From the IMG/VR virus record IMGVR_UViG_3300045988_180399: a stretch of 64,000 nt of DNA; one strand, 5' to 3'. Positions 1 to 63,029 of this stretch are shown piece after piece. The stretch comes from a virus. The translations under genes were made by a program, and so were the position numbers. The notes beneath the pieces are model-generated. The model did no database searches. It was given only the letters and a program-made list of their open reading frames with translations, and was not told where the DNA came from. Numbering within the stretch: position 1 is the first letter of the stretch; every line of letters starts with the position of its first letter.

Positions 1-118
1 CGGTATGCTGAGACCATACAAAGGAAGTATCACAAACATAATGAAAGTTCAGTCTGCACCCAACGGGCGCAGGCTTTTATATAAATCAAAAAATAACAAG
101 TAAGGAGAATCAGAAAAA
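1..118 (+). promoter_or_regulatory. Conserved structured leader module, copy A (5' truncated at window edge)
   Basis: Matches other copies: CGGTATGCTGAGACCATACAAAGGAAGTATCACAAACA...AAGTTCAGTC then hairpin (CTGCACCC/GGGCGCAG) + GGCTTTTATATA + AAGGAGA RBS; ATG at 119. Confidence 0.6.
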
Positions 119-10105: not shown

Positions 10106-12382
10106 GTGACCATGACTCAACAACAGCAGAATCTGATTCGCAGACTGAAAATCGCATTGTTGGTAGTCCTCATATTGTCTATTTACATGACGGGGATTGT
10201 TCTCAGCATTTCCGTAGTGAAGTCCACGCTCAACCCGTTCCGTTTGATTCGCCTCTTCGGTGAGTACGGCTTTCCGTGGAAAATGTTCCTTGGCTGTTTT
10301 CTTTTCATCGGTATTGCCATTTCCATCCTGATGGCATACTCCGTTTCCGAGGAAGCGGGTGTCGATAAGATGGGTCGCTTGTTTTCCATGGCGATTGGCC
10401 GCAAGACATACGGAGAAGCGCACTTTGAGGACCCGAAAGAATACGAGGATGTCGCTATCATCCAGCATGAGCCGCAGGCAGTTGGCACTATCCTCGGACA
10501 ACTGGACGAGACAGGCCGCTACCCCATTGTATTCCGAGAGGATAAGATGAACCGTGCGAACCGGCACATTGCCGTCATCGGCGCGTCAGGCTGCGGCAAG
10601 ACCTATACCTTTACAAAGAACTACGCTTTCCAGGCGGTAAAGCGCCGGGAGTCCCTGATATTCACAGACCCGGACGGCGGCCTTTACGCAGATATGGCAA
10701 GGTACTTCATGGACAACGGATATGTCGTGCGACGCTTCGACCTGCACAATATCAGCAAGAGTGACGGCTGGAATTGCATGGACTCGCTTTTGGCAGACCC
10801 AGAACGTATTGGCGAAAATGCAGAGATTTTTGCAAATGTTATCATTTCCAACGCCGGAGGGAGTGCCGGCATTTACGAGAGCGGACCGAAATCTCTTCTG
10901 AAGGCGCTCCTTCTGCGCGTTGCGCTTGGACATGACTACCCGCCTGAGAAGAAAAATATCAACTCTGTCCATCAGATGCTCAAGAACCCAGGGGGAGAGG
11001 CTTATCTGGATATGATGTTTGACCCGGACAGTCTTACGCCGGAGGAACAGCCCTGCGTCGGGCCGTACATGACCTTCAAGCAGTCCTCACCGAATCTTCG
11101 CGGCAACCTCATTGTGAACCTTGCGGCAGATATCGGGGTTATGGATGACGCAAAAGTGCGGACGCTGCTCTCCACCCCCTGCATTGATATGTCTCTTCCC
11201 GGAAAGCAGCCTTGCGCTTATTTCTGCATTTTCCCTGACAGCCATGACACCTACAAATTCATCGTGTCCCTGTTCTTCTCCATGCTGTTCATTACCCTTA
11301 TCAACGACGCGGATAATAACGGCAAGGACCGTATGCTCGATGTCCCTGTTGATTTCCTGCTGGACGAGTTTCCGTCCATCGGTACGATTCCGGATTTTGA
11401 CCGAAAAATGGCGACGATTCGAAAGCGTGCCATGAATGTCTGCATGATATTTCAAGACATCACCCAGCTTCAGAACAACTACCAGACAACCTGGGCAACC
11501 CTCCTGAGTAACTGCTCGACATTAGTGAGCCTTGGTATCAACGACGAATTTACCGCGAAAATGGTGTCCTCTCGTATCGGTGATACGACCGTAAACGTCC
11601 GGACCAACCAGCATAAGGCGATGGAAACGCTGCTGAAAAACAACGAGTTTCTTCACAACTGGTCATCTGGTGAAGGTAAGCGTGCGCTGGTGGGGCTGGA
11701 TGAAGCATTTAAGATGGGGAAGAACGACAGCATCATTATCTTTCAGGGGCATAACCCTATACTTGCGAAAAAATACCCCCACACGCTCCATACGGACGCC
11801 AAGAAACTCAGCAATTTTGATTTCCGTGAAATCCCACCCATCACCGACAAAGAGGGGCGAGAGCTGTTTTATCAGCGTCAGCAAAATATTCTGGACGCTT
11901 TCAATATCACGCATCCGCACATCAACGAGGTAGACCGTTCGTACACGGGGATGTGCAACTCGATACCAGTACAAAGCATTTGGGAAGAGAGCAAGGATGC
12001 CGTTATTGCATACGTCAAGGAGATAAATAAGAAAGGCTCCGATGACGATGTGATAGAGGTCGAGGACTGCGGTGATGAATACATCGAGGTAGACGAGACA
12101 GACGAGGAGCAGGCGGTCGAACCTTCAGCACCACCTGCACAGCAGGAGCCGGTACTGTCCGTTGACGCAAAGCCGAACGCAGATATCGACTTGGAAAGCG
12201 CAGGGGACGAAACAGAACCGCAGCAGGAAGTCATAAGCAAGCCGAAGGAAGCCCCCACGCCTGCCGAAGCAAAAGAGGTAGCGCAGGGTGGGAAGCGCCC
12301 AGCACCGCCGAAGCGCAGCTTTAGTTCTACGCCGACTACAGGGAAACCGAGAATGTCGGGGAAGCTGCCGGGGATGCGGTAA
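10106..12382 (+). CDS. VirD4/TraG-family type IV coupling protein (T4CP)
   Basis: 758 aa; N-terminal TM helices, Walker A GASGCGKT, TraG/TraD-like core, acidic disordered C-terminus. Confidence 0.75.
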   Translation: MTMTQQQQNLIRRLKIALLVVLILSIYMTGIVLSISVVKSTLNPFRLIRLFGEYGFPWKMFLGCFLFIGIAISILMAYSVSEEAGVDKMGRLFSMAIGRKTYGEAHFEDPKEYEDVAIIQHEPQAVGTILGQLDETGRYPIVFREDKMNRANRHIAVIGASGCGKTYTFTKNYAFQAVKRRESLIFTDPDGGLYADMARYFMDNGYVVRRFDLHNISKSDGWNCMDSLLADPERIGENAEIFANVIISNAGGSAGIYESGPKSLLKALLLRVALGHDYPPEKKNINSVHQMLKNPGGEAYLDMMFDPDSLTPEEQPCVGPYMTFKQSSPNLRGNLIVNLAADIGVMDDAKVRTLLSTPCIDMSLPGKQPCAYFCIFPDSHDTYKFIVSLFFSMLFITLINDADNNGKDRMLDVPVDFLLDEFPSIGTIPDFDRKMATIRKRAMNVCMIFQDITQLQNNYQTTWATLLSNCSTLVSLGINDEFTAKMVSSRIGDTTVNVRTNQHKAMETLLKNNEFLHNWSSGEGKRALVGLDEAFKMGKNDSIIIFQGHNPILAKKYPHTLHTDAKKLSNFDFREIPPITDKEGRELFYQRQQNILDAFNITHPHINEVDRSYTGMCNSIPVQSIWEESKDAVIAYVKEINKKGSDDDVIEVEDCGDEYIEVDETDEEQAVEPSAPPAQQEPVLSVDAKPNADIDLESAGDETEPQQEVISKPKEAPTPAEAKEVAQGGKRPAPPKRSFSSTPTTGKPRMSGKLPGMR

Positions 12383-12469: not shown

Positions 12470-12498
12470 TTTACAAATAAGATAAAGTGTGGTATAAT
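12470..12498 (+). promoter_or_regulatory. sigma-A type promoter (TTTACA-N17-extended -10 TGTGGTATAAT)
   Basis: -35 TTTACA 12470-12475, -10 TATAAT 12493-12498 with TGTGG extension; upstream of signal peptidase gene. Confidence 0.6.
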
Positions 12499-13203: not shown

Positions 13204-14457
13204 ATGGTCAAAAAAGATGGAGCAACTGCTTCAATCGAGGAAAACGCTGAAGTGCAGGCTCCCACTGAGGAACAGAGCAACGTCCAATCCTCCACCGCAG
13301 AGAGCGTTGAAACGCAGGCCACCAATGAAGAGGACGCAGAGATGCAGGCACTCTTTGAAGGGCTTGATGGAAACGAACCTGAGCAGTCCGGCGCGGAGGA
13401 AACCGCTCCCAATGGGAAGCCTACCCGTGCTGATGTACTGAGGGAGGCAAGGCGGCGGAGAGCGGAAAGAAGTGAGTCTGTCCGTGCCTATCAGGAGTTT
13501 CTTATCGGACTTTCTTCATTGACGGTCGCAGCTAAAAACCACAGCATCGTAAACGGTCTCGTCTCTCATATTGAGCAGCGAAACGATGTGGATTCGGAAG
13601 TTCCCTGTGTCATGATTATCGCGCTCGTAGAGGGCCGCTACAAGGTTTCCATTCCCTTTGACGAGTTCTATCAGAAGAATCCCATTGATATGGCGACGGT
13701 AAATATGGAAACTAAGGCCGGTCGTGAAGAGTACGTCAACCGCTGCGCTACGATGGCGGCAAAGCTGTATTCCCTGAATGTGCCGATGGTGATTACGACT
13801 ATCCAGGTCGATGAAAGCACCGATGCTGAAGCCGGAGTTCCGGCTTATGTCATTGTCGCGTCCCGTAAGGCTGCGCTCGACATTATTGAGGAGGCAAATT
13901 ACGGAGACCGACCTGATGGTGATGGCCCGCGCATTCAGGAAGGCGATTTTGTTCGTGCTCAGATTACCTCTGTGGCACGCGACAGCATTGCCGTTGTGGT
14001 TGGCGGAGTCGATACGCGGGTGCCGCTCCACGCCCTGACTTTCGAGTACCTTGTTGACGCGAGAACCAAATACAAGGTGGGGCAGGAAATTATGGTTCAG
14101 GTAGAGCAAATCATCAAAGAGAAAGACGGCCACCACATCGTCGAGGTGAACTGTAAGCAGCCTGAGTTGGAGCGTGCGAAGCAAATGCGCAGTGCTCTTC
14201 CAATCGGCTCCATCGTGTTTGGCATCGTATCTTCCGTGGCTGCGAGTAAGAAGCAGCCTGGGAATATCAATGTGTTGGCGTATATCAAGATGTACGATTT
14301 ACCCGTACTCGTGAACAATATGCCTGCGAAATTCCTTGGGAGCGAGCCTCCGCGTGGTTCGACCGTCCGGCTGAAGGTTCTTAATTATTTGGACAACGGG
14401 ATGATTCTGTGTCGGTGCATCGGCACCCAAGGCCCCATGAATTTCCCCAACGCCTGA
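13204..14457 (+). CDS. hypothetical protein with S1/OB-fold-like repeats
   Basis: 417 aa; acidic N-terminus; segments GDFVRAQITSVARDSIAVVVGGVDTRVPLHAL and GSIVFGIVSSV... resemble S1 domains. Confidence 0.4.
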   Translation: MVKKDGATASIEENAEVQAPTEEQSNVQSSTAESVETQATNEEDAEMQALFEGLDGNEPEQSGAEETAPNGKPTRADVLREARRRRAERSESVRAYQEFLIGLSSLTVAAKNHSIVNGLVSHIEQRNDVDSEVPCVMIIALVEGRYKVSIPFDEFYQKNPIDMATVNMETKAGREEYVNRCATMAAKLYSLNVPMVITTIQVDESTDAEAGVPAYVIVASRKAALDIIEEANYGDRPDGDGPRIQEGDFVRAQITSVARDSIAVVVGGVDTRVPLHALTFEYLVDARTKYKVGQEIMVQVEQIIKEKDGHHIVEVNCKQPELERAKQMRSALPIGSIVFGIVSSVAASKKQPGNINVLAYIKMYDLPVLVNNMPAKFLGSEPPRGSTVRLKVLNYLDNGMILCRCIGTQGPMNFPNA

Positions 14458-14545: not shown

Positions 14546-15418
14546 GTGAGCGATAAGCGTAACGAGGACTTGAAACAGTTCATTATTCCAGAAAATTTTA
14601 TGGGAGAATCCAGACTATTTCAAGGGCAGTTAAAGACACGCAATGTAGTGGAAGGAGGATTGATTTCGGGGGTATTGGCAATTTTCTTTTGGAATGTCAT
14701 TTCAGTTCCTATCACCACAAAAATATCCCTGGTCATATTCCTTTCCGCACCACTTGGCCTGCTTGGCTTGTTTGGAGTGAACGGCGACCCGCTGTCCACC
14801 TTTATCAAGATTTTCTTTTCATGGCGAAGAAAACGGGGGCTGATGCTGTTCAACAACGAAGCACGAGCGTTGAAGGAAGCCCCCATTAAGCTCATGATGT
14901 CGGAAGATGGCATGGGCGACAAACTCAGGGATTTTCTGGATGCCAGAAAGGAAAAGAAGGCCGCCGAACGGGCGAGTCAGGAGATGGTTGAAGGCAAAAC
15001 ATTCGAGTTTGCACCTGACAGTTCACTTGAGGGCAACTACATTGATGAAGATGACGATGGCGATGGAACGCCGAGCGGCAGCGCCGGCAATCGCCATAAA
15101 ACAAAGCACAACCAATCCTTCGTTGAAGTGGAAGTCCTGGAAGAGGATGACGATACCTCGTTGGAACTGGACGGATTTACGGAGGATATCGACAGCAGCA
15201 CTGTTGAGGAATCTGGCCCGCCGTTGCCGGATTTGGGCGGGGCCGACGATGTGGAATTGAGCAACGATGACACCAACGAGATGCCTGACGCCGAGGAACC
15301 TGACGATAATCCCCCCGCGTGTGAAACGCAACTGGAGCCTGCGGCAGAGGATGATTCTGACGCCGAAGGCGACGCGGATGGGGAAGATGAAGAACTTGAC
15401 GAGGAGGATTTGTTTTAA
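14546..15418 (+). CDS. TcpE/VirB3-like small membrane T4SS protein with long acidic C-terminal tail
   Basis: 290 aa, GTG start after GGAGG; two adjacent TM helices near N-terminus; stop overlaps VirB4 start (TAATG). Confidence 0.5.
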   Translation: MSDKRNEDLKQFIIPENFMGESRLFQGQLKTRNVVEGGLISGVLAIFFWNVISVPITTKISLVIFLSAPLGLLGLFGVNGDPLSTFIKIFFSWRRKRGLMLFNNEARALKEAPIKLMMSEDGMGDKLRDFLDARKEKKAAERASQEMVEGKTFEFAPDSSLEGNYIDEDDDGDGTPSGSAGNRHKTKHNQSFVEVEVLEEDDDTSLELDGFTEDIDSSTVEESGPPLPDLGGADDVELSNDDTNEMPDAEEPDDNPPACETQLEPAAEDDSDAEGDADGEDEELDEEDLF

Positions 15419-17910
15419 TGTCCAGAAAACTGAAACAGGTGATAAGCTGCCAATCTTTCTCGCCCATAAGTGATGTCCGTGACGGCATCATCGTCACGAA
15501 AGACGGGAAATTTGTGAAGTTGATGGAGTTCTCTCCCATTAACTACGGCTTACGGTCGAACGAGGATAAGAACATGATTACGGCACAATATGCGGCCGCA
15601 ATCCGCTCGTTTCCAAGCGTTGTCCAAATCAAAGTTCTGTCCAATCGAGCAAATGTCGAACACTATATTTCCGGCATGGTGGAAAGCGTGCGCCATGAAA
15701 AGAATGAAGGAACCCGTGAACTGATGCGGGAGCAAATCGACATGATGTCAGAATTTGGCGCATCGCAAGGCGTATCCCGTCGCTTCTTTCTCGCATTCCA
15801 GTACGAGGAAGAAGAGGGATTCGCACATCGTTCACCATCATGGAATGAAATCAGAAGCACCATTACGAGACAGGAGGACGCCATCAGAAGCAACCTTCGG
15901 GCCTGCGGCAACATTATGATTTCAAGGCCTCACGATGACGTCTATGTGCTTTCCACGCTTTACGATATCATGTCCAGAGCACAGAGCGCGAACCACCCGT
16001 TTGACGAGAGAATGGCGGATGTTGTTGCCCGATATACGGCGGCAAACATCGACTTCACGCGAGATAGCGCGGCGCATCTTCCTGTCAATGATGTGCTTGC
16101 TCCGTACTGCATTGATACGGAGTCAAGTCCCCGATATATCATCGTGGATGGCATCTACTATATGTGCTGCTATCTTCCGAGCAATGCCTATCCTGTGCGC
16201 GTTCTTGGCGGCTGGATGCAGCTGCTGGCAGGGCTGGGAGAGGGGATTGATGTGGATGTTTGGCTTCAGAAGATTTCACCGGAGAAGATTCAAACGGCAC
16301 TGCATCATGGCCTGCGGTTCAATGCAATGCGCTTCCGCAACACAGAAACCACCAGTAGCGACTACGATGATGTGAAGGCTGCGGTGGACGCAGGATACTA
16401 TCTGAAAAGCTCTCTCGCGGCCGGCGACGAATTTGCCTATATGTCTACAATGCTCACTATTACAGGTGAAAGCGAGCGAGAAATTGACTACAAATTCAAG
16501 GAAATCCGGCGCATTTTCATTGAGAGAGAATTGACTCTGAAGCCTTGTACTTTCCAGCAAGCGGAAGCGTTTCGCTCCACCATTCCCGTATGTGAGTATG
16601 ACAAAAACCTATTCCGTAAGAGCCGCAGAAATATTCTGTGTTCCGATTTTGCGTCCACCTATATGTTCACATCTTCCGAGCTGTGCGATAAGGACGGCGT
16701 GATGCTGGGCGTGGATGATGTGTTCAAATCACCGGTTCTGGTCAACTTCTTCGACCGCCAGCAATACATCAATGCCAACATCAATATTGTCGGCTCCTCT
16801 GGCTCCGGTAAGACCTTCACCACGCAGGTTCTGGCATTGAGAATGCGGGAGAAGGGGGTTCAAACCTTCATTATCGCGCCGCTGAAAGGCAAGGAGTTCC
16901 TGCCGCTTTGCGAGAAGGTCGGGGGTAGTTTCATTGAAATCAAACCTGGCTCCGGACAGAATATCAATATCATGGAGATACGCAAGAAGGAAGAGGGTAA
17001 CGTCTACGATGACGATGGTGCGTTGGTCACTTCCGGCTCGATTTTGGCACAGAAAATCCAGCAACTTCTCATTTTCTTTAAGCTGATTATCCCGGACATG
17101 ACGCCAGAAGAGGTGCAGTATGTGGATGACGCGCTGCTGAAAACTTACGGCAATTTCGGAATTACCCATAAGAACAAGAGCCTGTTGGACCCCAACGACA
17201 AGAAGAAATACCGCAAAATGCCTATCCTTTCGGACGTATATTCCGAGCTGGAAAAGATGGGCGCACCAGCAAATCGTTTGTGCCGTTTGCTGACGCGATA
17301 CACCACAGGTTCTGCATCTTCGTTCAACGCGCAAACCAATGTGAACCTTAACAACAAGTTCGTAGTGCTGGATGTTTCCGATGCGCAGAAAGACTTTCTT
17401 CCTGTGGCTATGTTCCTTGCATTGGATTATGTTTGGGATAAATGCAAAGAAAATCGGAACGTCAACAAGTGTGTTTTCATTGACGAGACTTGGCGCTTGG
17501 TCTGCTCCGATGCACCTATCGAAGCCGCCAATTTCGTGGTCGAAATCTTCCGTACTATCCGAGGCTTCGGCGGAAGTGCCGTCGCTGCCACGCAGAATAT
17601 CGCAGACTTCTTCTCTGCGGGAATTGGCACCGCCATCATCGGAAACGCCAAAATCAAAATGATTTTGCGCAGCGAAAAAGAGGAAGCAAACGCGATTGCG
17701 GATGCGATTGGTCTGACCGACGAAGAACTCAAGCGTGTAAAAACCATGGACCGTGGAACCTGTCTCCTGACCGCAAATGAGAACCACATTTTCATCAATG
17801 TTAAGGCGACGGATACGGAAGAATACCTGATAACGACTGACCCCAAAGCAAGAGCCGCTGCGAAGCGCCGAATTGAGCAGAAGCGTACTTGCGCTGCCTT
17901 CAGGCGCTGA
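15418..17910 (+). CDS. VirB4/TcpF/PrgJ-family conjugal transfer ATPase
   Basis: 830 aa; Walker A GSSGSGKT, Walker B-like VFIDETW, CagE/TrbE/VirB4 architecture. Confidence 0.8.
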   Translation: MSRKLKQVISCQSFSPISDVRDGIIVTKDGKFVKLMEFSPINYGLRSNEDKNMITAQYAAAIRSFPSVVQIKVLSNRANVEHYISGMVESVRHEKNEGTRELMREQIDMMSEFGASQGVSRRFFLAFQYEEEEGFAHRSPSWNEIRSTITRQEDAIRSNLRACGNIMISRPHDDVYVLSTLYDIMSRAQSANHPFDERMADVVARYTAANIDFTRDSAAHLPVNDVLAPYCIDTESSPRYIIVDGIYYMCCYLPSNAYPVRVLGGWMQLLAGLGEGIDVDVWLQKISPEKIQTALHHGLRFNAMRFRNTETTSSDYDDVKAAVDAGYYLKSSLAAGDEFAYMSTMLTITGESEREIDYKFKEIRRIFIERELTLKPCTFQQAEAFRSTIPVCEYDKNLFRKSRRNILCSDFASTYMFTSSELCDKDGVMLGVDDVFKSPVLVNFFDRQQYINANINIVGSSGSGKTFTTQVLALRMREKGVQTFIIAPLKGKEFLPLCEKVGGSFIEIKPGSGQNINIMEIRKKEEGNVYDDDGALVTSGSILAQKIQQLLIFFKLIIPDMTPEEVQYVDDALLKTYGNFGITHKNKSLLDPNDKKKYRKMPILSDVYSELEKMGAPANRLCRLLTRYTTGSASSFNAQTNVNLNNKFVVLDVSDAQKDFLPVAMFLALDYVWDKCKENRNVNKCVFIDETWRLVCSDAPIEAANFVVEIFRTIRGFGGSAVAATQNIADFFSAGIGTAIIGNAKIKMILRSEKEEANAIADAIGLTDEELKRVKTMDRGTCLLTANENHIFINVKATDTEEYLITTDPKARAAAKRRIEQKRTCAAFRR

Positions 17911-27734: not shown

Positions 27735-28178
27735 ATGCAGGACAAACTCTGGCTCTCTACCATTAGTGTCGGGCGCGAACTCGTGCTCGTACCGTATGGC
27801 AATTTTGCAAGGACCGCTGGCGGCAGAACACCAATCACAAGAACCGTTACAAAAGTCGGCAAGAAGTATTTCTACATCGGCAACGACGCCTTCAGCCGCA
27901 TGACCGGCGAGTATATTGACCGAGAGGAATTCAACGGCGGCTATGTGCTCTATCCGGATATGGCAGCCTATGAGGAAGCGGTCCGCACAGCAGACGAGCG
28001 CTCTGCCATCAAGAAAATCGTTGATGCTGATTTTTACGGATACGACCCATTCAGTTGCTGGCGAACATACACTGTCTCGGATGCGGCTGTCCATGAGATA
28101 TACCGCATTCTGGTTGAGTGCGGTGCTATCAAAACCAGTACGGAGGAGGGAAAGCCTGATGGCAAAAGCGCAGAATAG
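27735..28178 (+). CDS. hypothetical protein
   Basis: 147 aa ORF with GGAGGA RBS. Confidence 0.45.
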   Translation: MQDKLWLSTISVGRELVLVPYGNFARTAGGRTPITRTVTKVGKKYFYIGNDAFSRMTGEYIDREEFNGGYVLYPDMAAYEEAVRTADERSAIKKIVDADFYGYDPFSCWRTYTVSDAAVHEIYRILVECGAIKTSTEEGKPDGKSAE

Positions 28179-30915: not shown

Positions 30916-30944
30916 TTGACAATTAAGCTAATATGTGGTATAAT
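30916..30944 (+). promoter_or_regulatory. sigma-A type promoter TTGACA-N17-TGTGGTATAAT
   Basis: -35 30916-30921, -10 30939-30944. Confidence 0.65.
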
Positions 30945-36080: not shown

Positions 36081-36357
36081 TATTGATAAATTGGGCGTGG
36101 GGCGGTGCAGCAAAGATGTTCTCCCTGCGGCGTATTGTGCTGGTTGGAACGGCTTACTTGGCTTGCTCGAAAAAGCCCCCACTGTGGATGCCGTGCCGGT
36201 GGTGCGATGTGAGGGCTGTGTATTTTCGCAATCAGACGGTTGGGTTTGCGGTGGTACATCTCTCATGCCGCAGCATCGAACATTTCCAAATAGTTTTTGC
36301 AGCGACGGAGAAAGGAAAAACAAAAATGACAAAGAAACAAACGACAGACAAGATTAA
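36067..36357 (+). CDS. small Cys-rich hypothetical protein
   Basis: 97 aa, ATG overlaps upstream stop (ATGA); CxxC..CxGC pattern. Confidence 0.25.
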   Translation: MNLVDIDKLGVGRCSKDVLPAAYCAGWNGLLGLLEKAPTVDAVPVVRCEGCVFSQSDGWVCGGTSLMPQHRTFPNSFCSDGERKNKNDKETNDRQD

Positions 36358-36724
36358 CCAGCCTGAGTTTGCCCCGGAGGAGTGGCGGAAGGCGGCCATT
36401 ATGTACGATACATCCTTTGCCTGGTGTAAGAATCAAATTTCAGCCTGGGGTAAGAATCAAATTTCATTTACACCGGGCTTTAACGAGATGTTCGATGAAG
36501 CGCTGGACACACTTCCTGAGCGAAACCGCGATATCGTCCAAAAGTATTTTCGTGACAGAATGACGTTTTCGCAAATCGCCGACCTGCACGGCACCAGCAG
36601 AAGCATAGTTCGCCATCTGTGTATCTGGACGGTATGGAAGGTCATGAATTTGATTCTGCTGCGAGAAGGAAGCAGCCAAAATGCCGCGCCACAAACAGGC
36701 GGAGGAACTGAAGGTGGGTATTGA
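36326..36724 (+). CDS. small sigma-70 region-4 (HTH) domain protein / ECF-like sigma factor fragment
   Basis: 132 aa from ATG 36326 (RBS GGAGAAAGG); LDTLPERNRDIVQKYFRDRMTFSQIADLHGTSRSIVRHL = sigma region 4.2-like HTH; contains 24-nt in-frame tandem duplication. Confidence 0.45.
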   Translation: MTKKQTTDKINQPEFAPEEWRKAAIMYDTSFAWCKNQISAWGKNQISFTPGFNEMFDEALDTLPERNRDIVQKYFRDRMTFSQIADLHGTSRSIVRHLCIWTVWKVMNLILLREGSSQNAAPQTGGGTEGGY

Positions 36725-37208
36725 CATCAATAGCCTGCCGCTTTCCGCACAGATTCAGGTGCGTGCAAAGCTCGACGAGCAGAAGCGCGAACAGAAACAG
36801 CAGCAAGCAAAAAAACAGCCGGAAGCACAGAAAAGGCAAAAACAGCCGAAAGAAGCGGACGCTGCTGAGCCATCCAAATATCGCAACATAAAGGTCATTC
36901 GTGTGGTGGATGGAGAAACCGTGAAATTCCCCAGCAAGCGGGAGGCACGGCGCTTCGATGAACTGTATTTGCAGTACAAGGGCGGTGCAATCCAGGACCT
37001 GCGGCTCCAGCAGGACTTCACGCTGGTCGAGGGCTATACACGGCCAAATGGCAAGCGGGTTCGCCCAATGGTCTATAAGGCAGATTTCGTATACCTTCGC
37101 AACGGTAAACGCATCGTGGAAGACGCGAAGGGAAAACGAACCGAAAAGTATCTCATGAAACGCAAACTCATGTTGGAAAAGTACGGAATCGAAATTTCGG
37201 AGGTGTAA
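36681..37208 (+). CDS. DUF1064 family protein (phage/plasmid associated)
   Basis: 175 aa; pattern KYRNIKV...G..FDS..EARR...L.....G.I.DL..Q..F.L......G...R...Y.ADF.Y...G...VEDAKG..T matches DUF1064. Confidence 0.5.
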   Translation: MPRHKQAEELKVGIDINSLPLSAQIQVRAKLDEQKREQKQQQAKKQPEAQKRQKQPKEADAAEPSKYRNIKVIRVVDGETVKFPSKREARRFDELYLQYKGGAIQDLRLQQDFTLVEGYTRPNGKRVRPMVYKADFVYLRNGKRIVEDAKGKRTEKYLMKRKLMLEKYGIEISEV

Positions 37209-37213
37209 TATCA

Positions 37214-37717
37214 ATGTTTGAAAACGGTAAGTTCCCAACGATTGAAGAGCTTTTGGAACGGGGAGAACACCTCATTCAGAAGGCAGTTGACGGAAAAAGA
37301 TTAAGCGGCGAGGAAACGCATTTTCTCGAATTGCAAAATATATGGCTTGCGCAAAGGAGGGATGAACAGGAAAAAAACTGCGCGCGTCCTCTTGTGGAGC
37401 AGCTCAAGAAAACAAACCCCTTTGTGCAGGATGTATTCCGCAGCACCGAATATTCCGAGTTCGCCCTCTGGTGCATTGAGATTCCCACTACCGCCAGCCG
37501 GCACAACGAGGACGGCTCAAACGACATCTGCGGTTGTTGGATTACGGCAGACAACAGCGCGACCTACGAGGAGATGTGTCGCCGTCTGGAAGGAGTGAAG
37601 ACGAAAGCCGATATTCTGGCTCTCTCCACCACGCCAAGTACCGTTGAGGCAATCAGTACGGCCACACCGCGCTGGAGGGCGGAGGTGGAGCAACTCCGAG
37701 CACAACAGCAAAAATAG
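37214..37717 (+). CDS. hypothetical protein
   Basis: 167 aa ORF starting 6 nt after DUF1064 stop. Confidence 0.4.
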   Translation: MFENGKFPTIEELLERGEHLIQKAVDGKRLSGEETHFLELQNIWLAQRRDEQEKNCARPLVEQLKKTNPFVQDVFRSTEYSEFALWCIEIPTTASRHNEDGSNDICGCWITADNSATYEEMCRRLEGVKTKADILALSTTPSTVEAISTATPRWRAEVEQLRAQQQK

Positions 37718-37733
37718 TCTCTCCCATCCTGGA

Positions 37734-37764
37734 AGGCCGTCAGCACATCGCTGGCGGCCTTTTG
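37734..37764 (+). terminator. rho-independent terminator
   Basis: AGGCCGTCAGC..GCTGGCGGCCT + TTTG. Confidence 0.5.
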
Positions 37765-37765
37765 A

Positions 37766-37794
37766 TTGACAAGTAAGCTATTGTGTGGTATAAT
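37766..37794 (+). promoter_or_regulatory. sigma-A type promoter TTGACA-N17-TGTGGTATAAT
   Basis: -35 37766-37771, -10 37789-37794. Confidence 0.65.
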
Positions 37795-37818
37795 TGCTGC
37801 ATTCAATGAAGGGGGGGT

Positions 37819-38938
37819 GGTTGACATCACGAATACCAGTAATTTAGCCGCTGACCGTGCGCTTGCCTATGAAGCCATTGAAAGGCAGCCTGAAACAGAA
37901 GAAATCGCAGCTTCGAATGAACAGGAGACCGAAGCGAAGCAGCCGGGAAATATCGGCGACCATGTGGCGATGTATCTCAGCCAAATTGGCAGCATCCCCA
38001 TTATGCCGCAGGTGGAAGCGAATCGCTGTATTGAAAAAGTGCAGAAGGGGAATGCCGCTGCCGAACAGCTCGAAACGCTGCGGGTGATTGCCGAGGAGAG
38101 CGGGAATGCAGTTGACCCCGAAATCAAGAAAGACCTGATGAAGGCCATAGAAGCAGGAAGACGGGCGAAAGATAAGGTTGTTGAGGGCAATCTTCGGCTT
38201 GTTGTGTCCATCGCAAAGAAATATATAAACTCAGCCGATTCTATGGTGTTCATGGACCTCATTCAGGAGGGCAACATTGGCCTCATGCGTTCCATCGACT
38301 CTTTTGACATTTCGAGGAATGTGAAGTTTTCCACCTACGCAACCTTCTGGATAAGGCAAAACATCACAAGAGCGCTTGCCACGACGGACCCAGCCATTCG
38401 CAAGCCCATCTATGTTGCGGAGGGCAGGCGGAGCGTCAATAATGCAAAAGAACAAATGCAACAAAAAGGCTTACCTTGTGATGACCCTTTAGAAATCGCA
38501 AAATACATGGAGGGGGATGCGTGGGATTCCCTTTCAAAAAGGGAGCAGCAGAAAAAACTGCGCATCATCCAACACTCGCTCCAGTACCGGAAGCCGGACT
38601 CGTTGGATGCGCCCGTCAATTCGGACGCCGCAAGCGATTCCAACACACCGCTTTCGGAATTCATCCCAAGCCATAACGAGTGGGATAACCCGGAAATTTC
38701 AACGTCAGGGAAGGCACTATGGGAAACGATGGACAAAATCCTGCACGATATGCCCGCACGAGACGCCTGTGTGCTTCGCTTACGATTCGGATTGGAGGAT
38801 GGTTGTGCTTATACCCTCAAAGAAATCGGGGACGAAATGGACTTAACGCGAGAGCGTGTCCGTCAGGTTACAGATAAAACACTCGATAAGCTACGCAACG
38901 GAAAGGCAGGGAAGATGCTTCAGGACTTTCTTGAATAA
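37819..38938 (+). CDS. RNA polymerase sigma-70 family sigma factor (regions 1.2, 2, 3, 4)
   Basis: ~373 aa; likely GTG start 37819 after GAAGGGGGGG (ORF open from 37766); region 1.2 DHVAMYLSQIGSIPIMP, region 2 NLRLVVSIAKKY...LIQEGNIGLMRSIDSFD...FSTYATFWIRQ, region 4 LTRERVRQVTDKTLDKLR. Confidence 0.8.
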
Positions 38939-38941
38939 GAA

Positions 38942-38970
38942 ACGCCGCCCAGATGGGCGGCGTTTTTTTG
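38942..38970 (+). terminator. rho-independent terminator
   Basis: ACGCCGCCC-AGAT-GGGCGGCGT + T7. Confidence 0.8.
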
Positions 38971-39044
38971 CTATTCTCCGTTTCTTAAATCCAATCGAGC
39001 AGTTCCGCCAGCGTGAAGCGGACATTGCGCGTGACGATATGTAT

Positions 39045-39213
39045 TCTTCGGTTCTCAGGTTCCCAACATTAAAATAGGCGTGTTTCCATATTTGCCGGTA
39101 TGCTCAGAGCATACAAAGGAAGTATCTCAAACACAAAGAAAGTTCAGTCAGCGTCCGTTGCGGATGCTGGCTTTTATATATAAAAAATTCATAAACAAAA
39201 AGGAGAAATGAAC
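39045..39213 (+). promoter_or_regulatory. Conserved structured leader module, copy B
   Basis: GGTTCTCAGGTTCC box; hairpin-1 GTATGCTC-A-GAGCATAC; AAGTATCTCAAACACAAAGAAAGTTCAGTCAGCG; hairpin-2 TCCG-TTGC-CGGA in CAGCGTCCG..CGGATGCTG; GGCTTTTATATATA; AAAAGGAGAAATGAAC ATG. Confidence 0.7.
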
Positions 39214-39579
39214 ATGAAAGCAATGATGTTTAAGAGGGGTTTCGGTGACGAAACAAAGTGGAAAGAGGTCTGCGCGGAGCTTGGGCTGCCGGAAGATACG
39301 GAGCAGGTTGAGTTGTCCGTATCCGCAACAAAGGTCCGTACCAGCCAAAACCGCAGTTGGGAAGCGACCGACGAGGAGATGTCCCGAATTTGGGAACGCC
39401 TCGGCTCGTATTTCTTGCGCTGCGAGAGCATCTCCAGAACGAACATTCGCGTTTTCTGTGGCGGCGGAGATTCCTTTTCCGTTGTTCGCGGCACAACGCA
39501 GCCTGGATTCGTCGAGGTGGATGGACGGCTGATGGACTATGAAGACTTTGAAGCCTGGCTGTACCAGATGGCAGCTTGA
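39214..39579 (+). CDS. hypothetical protein
   Basis: 122 aa. Confidence 0.45.
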   Translation: MKAMMFKRGFGDETKWKEVCAELGLPEDTEQVELSVSATKVRTSQNRSWEATDEEMSRIWERLGSYFLRCESISRTNIRVFCGGGDSFSVVRGTTQPGFVEVDGRLMDYEDFEAWLYQMAA

Positions 39580-41063: not shown

Positions 41064-41089
41064 CATGTTTTGCCACAATCGAGTTCTCA

Positions 41090-41257
41090 TATTCTTAGGT
41101 TCTCAATCAGGAAATAGGTGATTTTTTCTCTTCTGCCGGTATGCTGAAATCATACAAAAGAAGTATCTCAAACACAAAGAAAGTTCAGTCAGCGTCCGTT
41201 GCGGATGCTGGCTTTTATATATAAAAATTTCATAAACAAAAAGGAGAAACGAAAAAA
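41090..41257 (+). promoter_or_regulatory. Conserved structured leader module, copy C
   Basis: Same block order as copy B; 3' 95 nt nearly identical to copy B. Confidence 0.7.
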
Positions 41258-44259: not shown

Positions 44260-44269
44260 TTTGCAGTTC

Positions 44270-44444
44270 TCCGGTTCTTCAGTTCTCAGGTTCCTGGAAG
44301 GTGAATGCGGCAATTTCCACTTCCGCCGGTATGCTGAGACCATACCAAAGAAGTATCACAAACAAAAAAGAAAGTTCAGTCAGCGCCCGCGTGGGTGCTG
44401 GCTTTTATATATCACATAACCATCACAAAAAAGGAGAAATGAAA
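44270..44444 (+). promoter_or_regulatory. Conserved structured leader module, copy D
   Basis: GGTTCTTCAGTTCTCAGGTTCC; hairpin-1 GGTATG..CATACC; hairpin-2 CAGCGCCCG-CGTG-GGTGCTG (compensatory changes vs copy B). Confidence 0.7.
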
Positions 44445-45191
44445 ATGGAGATTTATGTAAATTACCTCGCCATTGAGGTCACTCGTCGCTGCAACATGAA
44501 ATGCGAACACTGCCTGCGCGGAGATGCGCAAAATCTTGACATCTCAACCGCAGTTCTGTCGGGCATCGCTAAGCATATCCACCCTGCTTCCGTCATTTTC
44601 ACGGGCGGCGAGCCGTCTTTGAATGTTCCGGCCATCAAGCGGTACTTTGAGCTTGCGGAGCGTTATGACACGATGCCGGCTGCTTTCTATGTCGCCACCA
44701 ACGGAGCGACGTCGAAGGAGCAGATGCGCGACCTCGCGCTGACGCTGCTGGAATCGTATGCTAAGATGGAAGAGCAGGATATGTGCGAGGTCGATGTCTC
44801 TGTGGATATGTTCCACGAGGCGTTCCGCGACAATGACAACGCGAAAATTCTGAGCGGCTTGTCCTTCTTCGGCCAGGGTAAACAGCATTCGGTCAAGGAT
44901 GACGATTTGAATTGGCTGTTAAATACCGGACGTGCCAACAAGAACGGCATCGGCGTAAGAGCACCGGAGGTGCTCAGGACCGACATGGACGAGCTGGTAA
45001 CGGATTACTCCACAGAGTACAACAGCATTGCCTTCGATACGCTCTACATTGCCGCAAACGGTAATGTGGTAGACGGCTGTGACAGCAGTTACGAGGATAT
45101 CGACGACGAGGAGAACGTGATTTGCAAGGTCAACCAGCTTCAGAAGAAAGTGAAAGACTATGTGAAGAACGCCGATTCTCAAATCTCATAA
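44445..45191 (+). CDS. radical SAM enzyme (small, QueE/activase-like size)
   Basis: 249 aa; CNMKCEHC (CxxxCxxC) cluster motif at residues 15-22; SAM-binding glycine motif IFTGGEPSL. Confidence 0.65.
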   Translation: MEIYVNYLAIEVTRRCNMKCEHCLRGDAQNLDISTAVLSGIAKHIHPASVIFTGGEPSLNVPAIKRYFELAERYDTMPAAFYVATNGATSKEQMRDLALTLLESYAKMEEQDMCEVDVSVDMFHEAFRDNDNAKILSGLSFFGQGKQHSVKDDDLNWLLNTGRANKNGIGVRAPEVLRTDMDELVTDYSTEYNSIAFDTLYIAANGNVVDGCDSSYEDIDDEENVICKVNQLQKKVKDYVKNADSQIS

Positions 45192-48264: not shown

Positions 48265-48438
48265 TTGAGGTTCCTCGGTTCTTAGGTTCCAATTTGCAAA
48301 ATGCGGAGTTTTCCGTGCCTGCCGGTATGCTGAGACCATACAAAAGAAGTATCACAAACACAAAGAAAATTCAGTCAGCGTCCATACGGATACTGGCTTT
48401 TATATATCAAAAAAATTTCAAAAAAGGAGAATTAAAAA
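48265..48438 (+). promoter_or_regulatory. Conserved structured leader module, copy E
   Basis: GAGGTTCCTCGGTTCTTAGGTTCC; GCCGGTATGCTGAGACCATACAAAAGAAGTATCACAAACACAAAGAAAATTCAGTCAGCG; hairpin-2 TCC-ATAC-GGA; GGCTTTTATATAT. Confidence 0.7.
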
Positions 48439-52189: not shown

Positions 52190-52555
52190 ATGTACTATGT
52201 TCTTAACTTTAGAGGTCACGAATTTGTGTCCTGCGAAACCATCGGCGATGCCATGGCTCAGCTGAACAAGCTGTTCGCAGCCGGCGTGCCTTACGACGAA
52301 ATCACCGTCATCAACCGTGCAGTTGATGGTTGTGAGATGGATGTGGCCGCATTTATGGAGCATCGGAAAGCTTACGAGCTGGAGGAATCCGCGCCCGATA
52401 ACGACAAGCAGCACACTGAGTTGGAGGAATACTCCTCCGCGTACTGCAACTGCTGCGGGCTGGATTTCGATATTTCCGGCTGGCCCATCGTCTGCCCCAA
52501 CTGCGGGGCGGAATACGACGCGGACAAGCCCTATATCGTTGAGCTGTCCCGGTAA
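52190..52555 (+). CDS. hypothetical protein with C-terminal zinc ribbon (paralog of 49253..49444)
   Basis: 121 aa; CNCCG...CPNCG. Confidence 0.5.
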   Translation: MYYVLNFRGHEFVSCETIGDAMAQLNKLFAAGVPYDEITVINRAVDGCEMDVAAFMEHRKAYELEESAPDNDKQHTELEEYSSAYCNCCGLDFDISGWPIVCPNCGAEYDADKPYIVELSR

Positions 52556-52828: not shown

Positions 52829-53004
52829 GTGGTTCTTTGGTTCTCAGGTTCCTTGAAATAGAATAAAGCGTTTTCTTCATCCGCCGGTATGCTGAGACCA
52901 TACAAAGGAAGTATCACATACATAAAGAAAGTTCAGTCAGCATCCCTTGCGGATGCTGGCTTTTATATATCACCTAATAATTCACGAAAAGGAGAAATGA
53001 AAAA
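52829..53004 (+). promoter_or_regulatory. Conserved structured leader module, copy F
   Basis: GGTTCTTTGGTTCTCAGGTTCC; hairpin-1; hairpin-2 perfect CAGCATCC-CTTGC-GGATGCTG; GGCTTTTATATAT; AAAAGGAGAAATGAAAAA ATG. Confidence 0.7.
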
Positions 53005-60761: not shown

Positions 60762-60982
60762 CTGGGGTTCTTGAGTTCTCAGGTTCCGAACAGACAGGTT
60801 TTGAAAATTGAAAATCGTAGGGTATGATGGCGTTACATTAAAGAAGTATCTCTCATGAAATTGACTTGATACTTCGCTGGGACAAGCGCATTCGGAACTG
60901 TCCGCAGGGAAGAATCGCTTGTCCCATTTTTTTAATGTGCAAGCTACAACCACAAAAATTATTTCGAAAAGGAGAAAAAATC
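60762..60982 (+). promoter_or_regulatory. Divergent copy G of leader module (5' half conserved; 3' half replaced by TTGACT box and long hairpin+T7)
   Basis: GGTTCTTGAGTTCTCAGGTTCC ... GTAGGGTATGATGGCGTTACATTAAAGAAGTATC; then GAAGTATC..TTGACT..GATACTTC inverted repeat; GGGACAAGCG...CGCTTGTCCC+T7 at 60879-60934; RBS AAAAGGAGAAAAAATC ATG. Confidence 0.55.
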
Positions 60983-62343: not shown

Positions 62344-62661
62344 TTATTCGAACAACTCCCCCTCCTCGTCAGCGAGTGTCTTTAGATACTTGAACACCGT
62401 CTCAAACGAATCAGGCGAGTGGTCATACTCTGTAATATGGTTGAGCGCAAAGTAAGGTTCAACCATATTCACAACCATGAAGATGGGTAGGTGGTTGTCC
62501 TGTGCGAGTTTCACAATGCGTTCTCGGCGCTCAGGCAGTAAAAAGATATCGTCGATGAACCCGCACAGGGCGTAGAACTCGTTGTCATCAGGTGTGAGGG
62601 GAGCAACTGGCAGATTGGCAGCCTCCGGTATATCGTGGCCGGAAAAAAACTTCTTGTTCAT
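62344..62661 (-). CDS. hypothetical protein (only minus-strand gene in the array)
   Basis: 105 aa; acidic C-terminus; convergent with 61711..62256. Confidence 0.45.
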   Translation of the reverse strand: MNKKFFSGHDIPEAANLPVAPLTPDDNEFYALCGFIDDIFLLPERRERIVKLAQDNHLPIFMVVNMVEPYFALNHITEYDHSPDSFETVFKYLKTLADEEGELFE

Positions 62662-62857: not shown

Positions 62858-63029
62858 AGAATTCTTGGGTTCTTGGGTTCCTTGTGCAAAAATGGGCCAT
62901 TCCTCATATTTGTCGGTATGCTAAGAACATACCAAGGAAGTATCACAAACAAAAAGAAAGTTCAGTCAGCGGTTATAGACCATTGGCTTTTATATAAATA
63001 AACAGCTATTGTAAAGGAGAAATGAAAAA
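62858..63029 (+). promoter_or_regulatory. Conserved structured leader module, copy H
   Basis: TTCTTGGGTTCTTGGGTTCC; hairpin-1 GGTATG-CTAAGAA-CATACC; AAGTATCACAAACAAAAAGAAAGTTCAGTCAGCG; GGCTTTTATATAAATA; AAAGGAGAAATGAAAAA ATG. Confidence 0.65.

What the first reader, a model, noticed from the sequence alone, without database searches (positions are those of the whole stretch)
36326..38938. Two element-encoded sigma-70-family proteins sit immediately upstream of the leader-module array: candidate dedicated sigma regulon
There is a full-length sigma-70 protein at 37819..38938, with regions 1.2, 2, 3 and 4 recognisable. There is also a small region-4-only sigma-like protein at 36326..36724. Both lie directly 5' of the first leader-module copy at 39045. 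The leader modules have no good TTGACA-17-TATAAT host promoter. The accessory genes, including the sigma gene itself, use a clean TTGACW-N17-TGTGGTATAAT promoter. The conserved blocks of the module (AAGTATCAC, GTTCAGTCAGCG, GGCTTTTATATAT) could be the recognition elements of this element-encoded sigma. That would give a two-tier cascade: host sigma-A drives the element sigma, which drives the cassette array.
Basis: inference. Interest (0 to 1): 0.7.

Follow-up and report, generated by a model that had tools for sequence, protein, structure and literature searches.

The report
Mobile-element sigma beside gated promoter-terminator modules
A conjugative element common in human-gut Oscillospiraceae really does encode a housekeeping-type sigma factor and a small sigma-domain-4 protein next to an array of repeated regulatory modules, but the "recognition blocks" are a transcribed leader and its terminator, and the sigma looks built to read ordinary promoters, not a private motif.

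Summary
37817..38938 encodes a 373-aa RpoD-type sigma (regions 1.2-4.2, no region 1.1). 36326..36724 encodes a 132-aa protein whose only recognisable part is a sigma region-4 helix-turn-helix.

- The sigma keeps the DNA-contact residues of primary sigmas (FWIRQNITR; TRERVRQ). This predicts TTGACA/TATAAT specificity, which matches its own promoter and eight similar ones in the window.
- Two of the three proposed "recognition blocks" are the arms and T-tract of an intrinsic terminator. Six of its 11 stem pairs show compensatory changes. The third block lies in the leader.
- The promoter-like part of a module lies upstream: 2-5 GGTTCY hexamers, 35±1 bp, a -10-like TATGCT with no -35, 14 bp, GAAGTAT, then the terminator and ribosome-binding site. 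This spacing is kept in 127 unique copies and in a sister element whose sigma is only 48% identical.

Best reading: each module is a gated unit. It has an activator- or repressor-dependent, sigma-A-type promoter plus a leader terminator that must be read through. The small domain-4 protein is a weak candidate for the factor that binds the hexamers. A sigma-to-module cascade is not excluded, but not through the named blocks.

The parts
36326..36724 (+). Small 132-aa protein with a sigma region-4-type helix-turn-helix (residues about 54-97). It has no region 2, so it is not a complete sigma.
   Evidence: Pfam Sigma70_r4 33.4 bits and r4_2 25.9 bits. Fold matches to sigma domain 4, KorA and ArdK are weak, E 0.06-0.4. 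The family has only 21 clusters, all from this element family.
36681..37208 (+). DUF1064 / Holliday-junction-resolvase-like gene. It overlaps the small gene and belongs to the same operon.
   Evidence: Pfam DUF1064 70.9 bits; PHROG 190. It is also kept next to the sigma in the sister element L285.
37214..37717 (+). 167-aa protein of unknown function between DUF1064 and the sigma.
   Evidence: No Pfam, NCBIfam or PHROG hit. No homologue in L285.
37766..37794 (+). Consensus sigma-A-type promoter of the sigma gene: TTGACA-N17-TATAAT with TGTG upstream of the -10.
   Evidence: 12/12 match with TG; one of 9 matches to the class-A pattern.
37817..38938 (+). RpoD-type sigma, 373 aa, with regions 1.2, 2, 3 and 4. 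Region 1.1 is lost. It starts at a GTG directly after a G6/G7 tract.
38943..38969 (+). Intrinsic terminator of the sigma gene: CGCCGCCC-AGAT-GGGCGGCG followed by T7.
   Evidence: Read from the sequence. The Rfam E-value scan hit only terminator-like ends of leader models here.
39042..39063 (+). Module 1: three hexamers with 8-bp period (TATTCT, GGTTCT, GGTTCC). These are the proposed regulator-binding sites.
   Evidence: (13 matches against 1.0 expected).
39099..39104 (+). Module 1: invariant -10-like hexamer TATGCT, 35 bp after the last hexamer. There is no -35 (best 3/6).
39119..39125 (+). Module 1: invariant GAAGTAT, 14 bp after the -10-like hexamer.
39146..39180 (+). Module 1: leader intrinsic terminator (AGTCAGCGTCCG-TTG-CGGATGCTGGCT plus TTTATATAT).
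   Evidence: Six of 11 stem pairs have compensatory changes and 96.8% of cells are paired.
39201..39579 (+). Ribosome-binding site AGGAGA and the first gene of cassette 1 (ATG 39208).
41082..41257 (+). Module 2 (repeats 41082-41103, TATGCT 41140, terminator 41187-41221).
44265..44444 (+). Module 3 (four repeats 44265-44294, TATGCT 44330, terminator 44378-44411).
48269..48438 (+). Module 4 (repeats 48269-48290, TATGCT 48326).
52831..53004 (+). Module 5 (repeats 52831-52852, TATGCT 52888).
60766..60933 (+). Degenerate module. It has the same repeats and spacing, but carries TTGAAA-N16-TATGAT (a full sigma-A-like promoter), a GAAGTATC/GATACTTC hairpin and a different terminator (60879-60933).
62860..63029 (+). 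Module 7 (repeats 62860-62881, TATGCT 62917).
1..118 (+). 3' part of a further module, cut by the window edge, ahead of the ERF, primase-like and T4SS genes.
30916..30944 (+). Example of the other class-A consensus promoters. The rest are at 12470, 23871, 26188 and 58265 on the + strand, and 62817-62789 on the - strand.

Best explanation
The window is part of a conjugative element, apparently integrated (ICE-like), of human-gut Oscillospiraceae. It uses two kinds of transcription signal.

(A) Nine near-perfect TTGACA-N17-(TGTG)nTATAAT promoters. One of them drives a monocistronic sigma gene. That sigma is a region-1.1-less RpoD-type protein that keeps the primary-sigma residues contacting the -10, extended -10 and -35 elements. 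It is therefore most likely a second sigma-A-like factor. It would read the same consensus promoters, its own included, and any sigma-A-type -10. It is unlikely to be a factor with a private motif.

(B) At least 8 copies per window of a roughly 180-bp gate placed in front of operons. Each gate runs, in order:
- 2-5 GGTTCY hexamers (8-bp period, sometimes inverted);
- 35±1 bp;
- a -10-like TATGCT with no -35 and no TG;
- 14 bp;
- GAAGTAT;
- an intrinsic terminator;
- an A-rich spacer, then the ribosome-binding site.

Expression of a cassette therefore needs two things. First, a DNA-binding factor at the hexamers, which either helps a sigma-A-type holoenzyme (host or element sigma) start at the -35-less promoter or releases it from repression. 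Second, read-through of the leader terminator about 35-70 nt downstream.

The small domain-4-only protein is the best, but weak, candidate for the hexamer binder. Sigma domain 4 binds one hexamer as a monomer, which fits sites found in either orientation.

Shown here: the protein identities, the terminator, the fixed spacings and the lack of a -35. Inferred: the transcription start site, which sigma fires the modules, who binds the hexamers, and how termination is overcome.
For: Sigma identity and contact residues. These show KFSTYATFWIRQNITRA against KFSTYATWWIRQAITRA, and LTRERVRQV against VTRERIRQI.

Class-A promoters: 9 matches against 0.25 expected; the sigma's own promoter scores 12/12.

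Terminator. Six of 11 pairs have compensatory changes, and 0 of 500 shuffles reach the observed covariation.

Hexamer arrays: 13 matches against 1.0 expected. Inverted copies appear in some variants.

Fixed geometry: the distance from the last hexamer to TATRMT is 34-36 bp in 106 of 127 unique module sequences. The other 21 give 20 bp; in my judgement that comes from the detector matching AATTCT at the AAT site, but this was not re-checked. The three L285 modules give 36 bp (sigma 48% identical), and N14 to GAAGTAT is built into the detector.

TATRMT behaves as a -10 element. It is TATGCT, TATACT or TATGAT in all families. The degenerate module has gained TTGAAA at 16 bp, and the L029 variant has TTCACG-17-TGgTATGCT.

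No -35 in canonical modules: best match 3/6 or less.

Each operon ends in its own terminator, so the modules must start transcription themselves.

Small protein: domain-4 fold, with KorA and ArdK (global plasmid regulators) among its neighbours. The family is confined to this element.
Against: - No transcription start site or expression data exist. An alternative start upstream, from the family-specific nnnAAT 21 nt before GGTATG, cannot be excluded.
- GTATG-N7-CATAC forms a hairpin with one compensatory pair in the sister element. This would favour an RNA-level role for that segment.
- Hexamers centred near -51, -59 and -67 with an 8-bp period are an unusual geometry for an activator.
- The small protein gene is missing from the syntenic place in the 9.8-kb sister contig. 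One variant (P0128) lacks 19 residues of the helix-turn-helix.
- The sigma has W433F, Y425V and H455Y changes whose effect is unknown.
- In the sister element, sigma regions 2.4 and 4.2 have changed (IWIKQSIIQ; TRECIRR) while the module motifs have not. This argues against direct reading of the hexamers, but leaves the sigma's role open.
Confidence: 0.45

Rival explanations
1. The element sigma has its own promoter specificity and directly drives the modules, giving a host sigma-A to element sigma to cassette cascade.
For: Sigma and modules are adjacent. They also occur together in a sister element whose sigma is 48% identical. The modules lack a -35. The sigma lineage is isolated: only one relative lies above 40% identity among 1.8 billion representatives.
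Against: The contact residues of regions 2.4 and 4.2 are those of primary sigmas. The named blocks are a terminator and a leader. The only -10-like element is a sigma-A-type TATGCT. The sister sigma changed its contact residues without any change in the module motifs. The sigma has a constitutive-type consensus promoter.
Confidence: 0.12
2. Transcription starts upstream of GGTATG, from the nnnAAT element. The whole conserved segment is then an RNA attenuator. Hairpin GGUAUG..CAUACC plus the terminator is the OFF state. Pairing of GG(U)AUGCUGA with UCAGCRUCC (an antiterminator) is the ON state, and a protein or ligand that binds the A-rich loop sets the balance.
For: AAT is invariant in 58 unique upstream sequences, at a fixed 21 nt from GGTATG. 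Hairpin 1 is 96.5% paired, with one G-C to A-U compensation. Truncated leaders fold into the alternative helix in 12 of 21 variants. S1-domain and ProQ-like RNA-binding proteins are encoded in the element.
Against: AAT is not kept in the sister element (AAT shifted, AAA, AAG), while the distance from the hexamers to TATRCT is kept. nnnAAT often lacks the A at position -11. The antiterminator pairing shows no covariation when the terminator arm changes. There is no Rfam match.
Confidence: 0.2
3. The co-oriented block of at least 64 kb is transcribed as very long operons under processive antitermination, as in pLS20 conAn or Tn916 canT. On this view the modules are internal insulators and re-loading sites rather than promoters.
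For: All genes but one lie on one strand. There are many internal terminators. Processive antitermination is widespread in Gram-positive conjugative elements (PMC8191782, PMC11658703).
Against: Two strong terminators at each junction, together with a conserved DNA-level geometry that includes inverted hexamers, fit independent promoters better. No ConAn1-like, NusG-like or Q-like protein was seen among about 60 ORFs scanned. The degenerate module has a complete promoter.
Confidence: 0.13

Closest known systems
Primary/group-2 sigma-70 factors (RpoD/SigA; e.g. Clostridioides difficile SigA, PDB 7L7B)
   Same: Regions 1.2-4.2 in the same order. Core-binding region 2.1-2.2. Q437, T440 and R441 of region 2.4, E458 of region 3.0, and R584, E585, R586, R588 and Q589 of region 4.2 are all kept (E. 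coli numbering from my own knowledge; alignments).
   Different: Only 35-40% identical. Scores below every RpoD/SigA equivalog cut-off. No region 1.1. W433F, Y425V and H455Y changes. A lineage-specific insert in region 3 shared with P0144 and P0148. Encoded on a mobile element.
Plasmid- or phage-encoded sigma cascades (SigN/ZpdN of pBS32, PMC6751061; SPO1 gp28 and TcdR-type factors, from general knowledge)
   Same: An element-encoded sigma expressed from a host-type promoter.
   Different: Those factors have diverged recognition regions and private promoter motifs. This one keeps primary-type residues, and no private motif was found.
Promoter-proximal terminator gates and antitermination in mobile elements (lambda pR'-tR'/Q from general knowledge; pLS20 conAn, PMC8191782; Tn916 canT, PMC11658703)
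   Same: An intrinsic terminator a few tens of nt after the start of element operons, so that expression needs read-through.
   Different: Here the gate is a short module of about 180 bp repeated at least 8 times, once per operon. No homologue of Q, ConAn1 or NusG was detected. conAn2 and canT are single, larger RNA elements at the start of an operon.
Global plasmid regulators that bind repeated operators at many promoters (KorA of RK2, ArdK of R388)
   Same: A small helix-turn-helix protein plus the same short DNA site repeated in front of many operons of one conjugative element. KorA and ArdK appear among the fold neighbours of the small protein.
   Different: The fold matches are weak (E 0.06-0.4, model pLDDT 67). 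There is no sequence similarity. Binding to GGTTCY is untested. KorA and ArdK are repressors of complete promoters.

Membership tests
Sigma-70 family (large ORF) | Region 2 and region 4 domains above Pfam gathering scores | tested here: met
   Sigma70_r2 64.3 bits (cut-off 24); Sigma70_r4 51.2 bits (cut-off 24.1).
Housekeeping RpoD/SigA (group 1) | Reaches the NCBIfam RpoD/SigA equivalog cut-off | tested here: not met
   Best score 226.5 bits against a cut-off of 555 (NF004208). All other RpoD/SigA models are also below cut-off.
Housekeeping RpoD/SigA (group 1) | N-terminal region 1.1 | tested here: not met
   Only about 44 residues precede region 1.2. Relatives P0144 and P0148 have 45-90 extra N-terminal residues with the region-1.1-like helix motif. 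The ORF cannot extend upstream of its own promoter.
Primary-type promoter specificity (groups 1 and 2) | Region 2.4 Q/T/R and region 4.2 R-E-R-x-R-Q contact residues | tested here: met
   FWIRQNITR and LTRERVRQV, aligned to WWIRQAITR and VTRERIRQI of SigA structures.
ECF (group 4) or TcdR-like (group 5) sigma | Only regions 2 and 4, with no region 1.2 or 3; best hits to ECF or TcdR models | tested here: not met
   Alignment to RpoD models runs through regions 1.2 and 3. The top 25 NCBIfam hits are RpoD, SigA, RpoS, RpoH, SigK and SigB/F/G. Only the superfamily model TIGR02937 passes.
Complete sigma factor (small ORF) | A region-2 core- and -10-binding domain in addition to region 4 | tested here: not met
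   Only Sigma70_r4 and r4_2 hit, at residues 54-97. About 50 residues lie N-terminal to them, modelled as one long helix.
Intrinsic (Rho-independent) terminator (leader blocks 2 and 3) | G+C-rich stem-loop followed by a T-run; the stem kept through compensatory changes | tested here: met
   12-pair stems plus TTTATATAT. Six of 11 pairs have changes on both sides, 96.8% of cells are paired, and slid controls give 24-41%.
Sigma-A-type promoter (modules) | A -35 TTGACA-like hexamer 16-18 bp upstream of a -10 TATAAT-like hexamer | tested here: not met
   A -10-like TATGCT is present, but the best -35 match is 3/6 or less in the six canonical window modules. Only the degenerate module has TTGAAA-16-TATGAT.
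Any described RNA family (Rfam 15) | Covariance-model match at gathering score | tested here: not met
   No hit in the whole window. The E-value scan gave only generic terminator ends.
conAn / canT / Q-type processive antitermination | A homologous protein (ConAn1, Q) or RNA element, plus demonstrated read-through | not testable with these tools
   No models of these were available. No NusG/KOW or Q-like Pfam hit among the ORFs scanned. Function needs experiment.

The most novel reading that the evidence does not exclude
The modules and the two sigma-family proteins could form a new kind of element-wide switch. A domain-4-only protein docks on the GGTTCY arrays of at least 8-15 identical gates. 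Together with the region-1.1-less element sigma, it would load RNA polymerase in a form that both starts at -35-less promoters and resists the terminator 35-70 nt downstream. That would be antitermination that depends on an initiation factor, set up at the promoter, without Q, NusG or RNA-element homologues.
Probability: 0.12. Interest if true: 0.8.

Novelty: new variant of a known kind. Interest (0 to 1): 0.5.

Why it matters
The element is very common in human-gut metagenomes: the sigma search returned thousands of near-identical proteins, and single sequences occur on up to 251 contigs.

Its T4SS genes and many cargo cassettes sit behind one repeated gate, so whatever opens that gate controls transfer and cargo expression of a major gut mobile element.

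The gate is also the point where cassettes recombine. The repeated combination of a promoter with only a -10 element and a leader terminator is undescribed in Rfam and would be a compact model for coordinated control. The sigma itself is an ordinary type of protein in an unusual place. It is more likely a way to claim RNA polymerase for consensus promoters than a private regulon.

Tried and rejected
- Leader peptide starting at the ATG inside GGTATG: rejected. There is no Shine-Dalgarno sequence, indels shift the frame between copies, and one variant has a stop at codon 3.
- Known RNA families: none match. There are no tRNAs.
- SigH (GAAT -10), ECF (GGAAC -35 on the other strand) and sigma-54 (-24/-12) readings of the hexamer/AAT geometry: the spacings do not fit and the partner elements are not conserved (inspection).
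- A promoter formed by TATATAT after the terminator: its -35 position would fall in the variable stem.
- Near-identical DNA in PLSDB plasmids: none. The small protein has no plasmid hit. The sigma is only 32-39% identical to plasmid rpoD genes.
- Searching IMG/VR for hexamer arrays or for a relaxed leader pattern gave only chance hits, apart from the same element family.
- Co-occurrence testing within the family is uninformative. The eight relatives compared directly carry sigma 98-100% identical with the same synteny, and the 120 best hits listed in the database search are 99-100% identical.
- A Q-like model with the hexamers as the Q-binding element: the sites lie too far (-49 and beyond) from a polymerase paused downstream.
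- Single-strand promoter or attC-like readings: the hairpins are too short, and the conserved geometry is that of duplex DNA.
Full report
WHAT IS AT THE COORDINATES

The ORF ending at 38938 is a genuine sigma-70-family protein.
- Pfam finds region 2 (64 bits) and region 4 (51 bits).
- NCBIfam RpoD/SigA models align over nearly the whole protein at 200-227 bits, but none reaches its equivalog cut-off.
- Solved SigA/RpoD structures match at E about 1e-50, from region 1.2 (GDHVAMYLSQIGSIP) to the C-terminus.
- The only in-frame start after the promoter is GTG 37817, giving 373 aa. Many database gene calls of 390 aa start at the TTG of the -35 box itself.
- Compared with its two nearest relatives, the protein has lost the N-terminal region-1.1-like segment.

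The ORF 36326..36724 (132 aa) has a single recognisable domain, a sigma region-4 helix-turn-helix at residues about 54-97 (33 bits, cut-off 24).
- About 50 residues lie upstream of that domain, which is too few for a region-2 domain.
- An AlphaFold model of moderate quality (pLDDT 67) has isolated sigma domain-4 structures as best neighbours. The plasmid global regulators KorA and ArdK follow. All of these matches are weak.
- It overlaps DUF1064 (36681..37208), so it belongs to an upstream operon and not to the sigma transcription unit.

CONTEXT

The window is part of a conjugative element.
- It encodes a VirD4/TraG coupling protein (10106..12382), a VirB4-type ATPase (15418..17910), pilin-like proteins and a CHAP/lysozyme protein. 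It also encodes ERF, UvrD, RecD2-like, YqaJ and UDG proteins.
- All genes but one are on the + strand.
- A 92-99% identical copy lies inside a 570-kb contig of Oscillospiraceae bacterium CM18GR_63, which suggests an integrated element.
- The sigma occurs in thousands of near-identical metagenome proteins, mostly from human gut. Single sequences are seen on up to 251 contigs.
- Among 1.8 billion 50%-identity representatives, only one specific relative exists (P0144, 49% identical). After it comes the general pool of primary sigmas at 35-45%.
- The small protein family has 21 clusters in 5.8 billion. Every member whose genomic context I looked up (P0136, P0128, P0127) lies in this element family.

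WHAT THE SIGMA IS PREDICTED TO READ

In the alignments to SigA structures, region 2.3-2.4 reads KFSTYATFWIRQNITRA (SigA: KFSTYATWWIRQAITRA). Region 3.0 keeps the glutamate of the extended -10 contact (IRKPIYVAEG against IRIPVHMVET). Region 4.2 reads LTRERVRQV (SigA: VTRERIRQI).

By established knowledge of sigma-70 (Q437/T440 for position -12; R584/E585/R588/Q589 for the -35), this predicts TTGACA/TATAAT specificity.

The window holds nine matches to TTGAC-N13-TGTGGTATAAT against 0.25 expected. One is the sigma's own promoter (12/12 with TG). These are the obvious targets, and host sigma-A should read them too.

ANATOMY OF THE MODULES

Copies lie at 1 (cut by the window edge), 39044, 41085, 44275, 48271, 52833 and 62862, with a degenerate one at 60766.

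A pattern scan found the module in more than 116 gut-metagenome stretches and 32 IMG/VR stretches, all from the same element family. These gave 85 unique 300-nt copies.

From 5' to 3' a module contains:
- The terminator of the preceding operon.
- 2-5 hexamers GGTTCY with an 8-bp period (13 matches against 1.0 expected). In some variants copies are inverted (GGAACY) or read TATTCC.
- A fixed 35±1 bp.
- TATGCT.
- 14 bp.
- GAAGTAT.
- An A-rich stretch.
- A 10-12-bp stem followed by GGCTTTTATATAT, which the terminator scan picks up.
- An A-rich spacer, the ribosome-binding site AAAGGAGAA, and ATG.

The stem is proven by covariation. Six of 11 pairs change on both sides, 96.8% of cells pair, slid controls give 24-41%, and 0 of 500 shuffles reach the observed score.

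AAGTATCAC lies between the -10-like hexamer and that terminator.

WHERE THE PROMOTER IS

Each operon ends in a strong terminator, so the modules must start transcription themselves.

The distance from the last hexamer to TATRMT is 34-36 bp in 106 of 127 unique module sequences. The other 21 give 20 bp. I attribute that to the detector matching AATTCT at the AAT site, but I did not re-check it.

The hexamer is TATGCT in this family, TATACT in the sister element and TATGAT in the degenerate module. That is the T-A-x-x-x-T signature of a sigma-70-family -10 element.

Canonical modules have no -35 (3/6 or less at 16-18 bp) and no TG.
- The degenerate module has acquired TTGAAA at 16 bp.
- One variant (L029) has TTCACG-17-TGgTATGCT.

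I therefore read TATRMT as the -10 of a sigma-A-type promoter that depends on a factor bound at the hexamers (centred near -51, -59 and -67). Transcription would start about 7 nt downstream, and the terminator would span roughly +35 to +70. The start site is inferred, not shown.

THE SISTER ELEMENT

P0144 (sigma 48% identical) lies on a 9.8-kb contig, L285. Its neighbouring genes are 57-80% identical to the window's ASCH-like, 221-aa, DUF1064 and cassette-1 genes.

It carries three modules with GGTTCY-N36-TATACT-N14-GAAGTAT, different terminator stems, and the same CTTTTTATATAT tail.

The differences are informative:
- The family-specific AAT 21 nt before GGTATG is not kept.
- The small domain-4 gene is absent from the syntenic place.
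- No class-A promoter is seen.
- The sigma's contact residues have changed (IWIKQSIIQ; TRECIRR).

The sigma-module association is therefore older than the present family, which is the best evidence for some functional link. However, the module motifs did not change when the sigma's recognition residues did. That argues against direct reading of those motifs by the sigma.

JUDGEMENT

The cascade idea survives only in a weakened form. The element sigma may be one of the sigmas that fire the modules, because it should recognise TATGCT like any primary-type sigma. Nothing indicates a dedicated specificity, and the named blocks are not recognition elements.

The sigma's perfect constitutive-type promoter also makes it a poor sole switch for modules that control T4SS genes. 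The more interesting object is the module itself. It is a repeated double lock (a factor-dependent promoter with only a -10 element, plus a leader terminator) whose keys are unknown.

RIVALS

- The segment from GGTATG onward may be RNA. Hairpin GUAUG/CAUAC is 96.5% paired with one compensatory change, and an alternative helix with the terminator's 5' arm forms in 12 of 21 truncated folds. But that helix shows no covariation, and the upstream nnnAAT is not conserved in the sister element.
- Long operons under processive antitermination, as in pLS20 or Tn916 (PMC8191782, PMC11658703), are possible. They are less consistent with the DNA-level geometry and with the complete promoter in the degenerate module. 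No ConAn1-, Q- or NusG-like protein was found among about 60 ORFs scanned.

LIMITS

- There are no transcript data.
- The metagenome and genome scans were capped.
- All close relatives are nearly identical, so phylogenetic profiling has power only through one short sister contig.
- Residue numbering and contact assignments rest on general knowledge of E. coli sigma-70.

Noticed in passing
L162-L167 11496-12788 (relatives); the insertion point corresponds to window about 38970-39040: In many relatives an IscB-like gene (RRXRR + HNH, 430 aa) is inserted between the sigma terminator and the first module. A second RRXRR gene (448-464 aa) lies upstream of the ASCH-like gene in some copies. Both are absent from the window.
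   Followed up: partly
L098, L018 (metagenome loci) compared with window modules 44275/39044 and 1/41085: Mosaic modules. The repeat half of one module type is joined to the leader half of another. This implies homologous recombination inside modules and shuffling of cassettes.
   Followed up: partly
window 36425-36472: A 24-nt tandem duplication inside the small domain-4 gene (AWCKNQIS/AWGKNQIS), absent in several variants. Another variant (P0128) has lost 19 residues of the helix-turn-helix. The C-terminal tail differs by frame between variants.
   Followed up: partly
window 37806-37819: A homopolymeric G tract directly before the sigma GTG start is G6 in 12 loci and G7 in 11. Database proteins starting MKGVVD, and 377-aa forms, imply G5 and G8 versions that put an upstream, almost leaderless ATG (37806) in frame. 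This could be phase variation or sequencing noise.
   Followed up: partly
window 62344-62661 (-) with promoter 62817-62789 (-): This is the only convincing minus-strand gene (105 aa, no family). It is driven by a class-A consensus promoter placed back-to-back with module 62860.
   Followed up: no
window 60766-60933: A degenerate module in which GAAGTATC pairs with GATACTTC, the terminator is different (GGGACAAGCG...CGCTTGTCCC followed by T7), and a -35-like TTGAAA has appeared. It follows the SLH-domain surface protein gene (58337-60757).
   Followed up: partly
window 27735-28178; 13204-14457; 52190-52555; 44445-45191: Possible RNA- or nucleic-acid-related accessory genes: a ProQ C-terminal-like protein, an S1-domain protein behind a class-A-like promoter, a small Cas12f-TNB-like zinc-ribbon protein, and a radical-SAM protein as the first gene of cassette 3.
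   Followed up: no
L166 7418-8542, L279 987-2249, L280 8908-10032: In some relatives the gene just upstream of the small domain-4 gene is a 374-420-aa protein with a weak RNA-polymerase alpha-CTD hit (PF03118). The window has a 221-aa plus 97-aa arrangement there instead.
   Followed up: no
L285 5559-6105 (-): The sister element carries a minus-strand PhdYeFM-type antitoxin pair between two modules. It is flanked by a 17-bp-stem bidirectional terminator.
   Followed up: no
IMG/VR loci L130-L161: Contigs of this conjugative element (27-94 kb) are filed in IMG/VR as viral genomes. This is probably because of its phage-like ERF, DUF1064, YqaJ and UDG genes.
   Followed up: no
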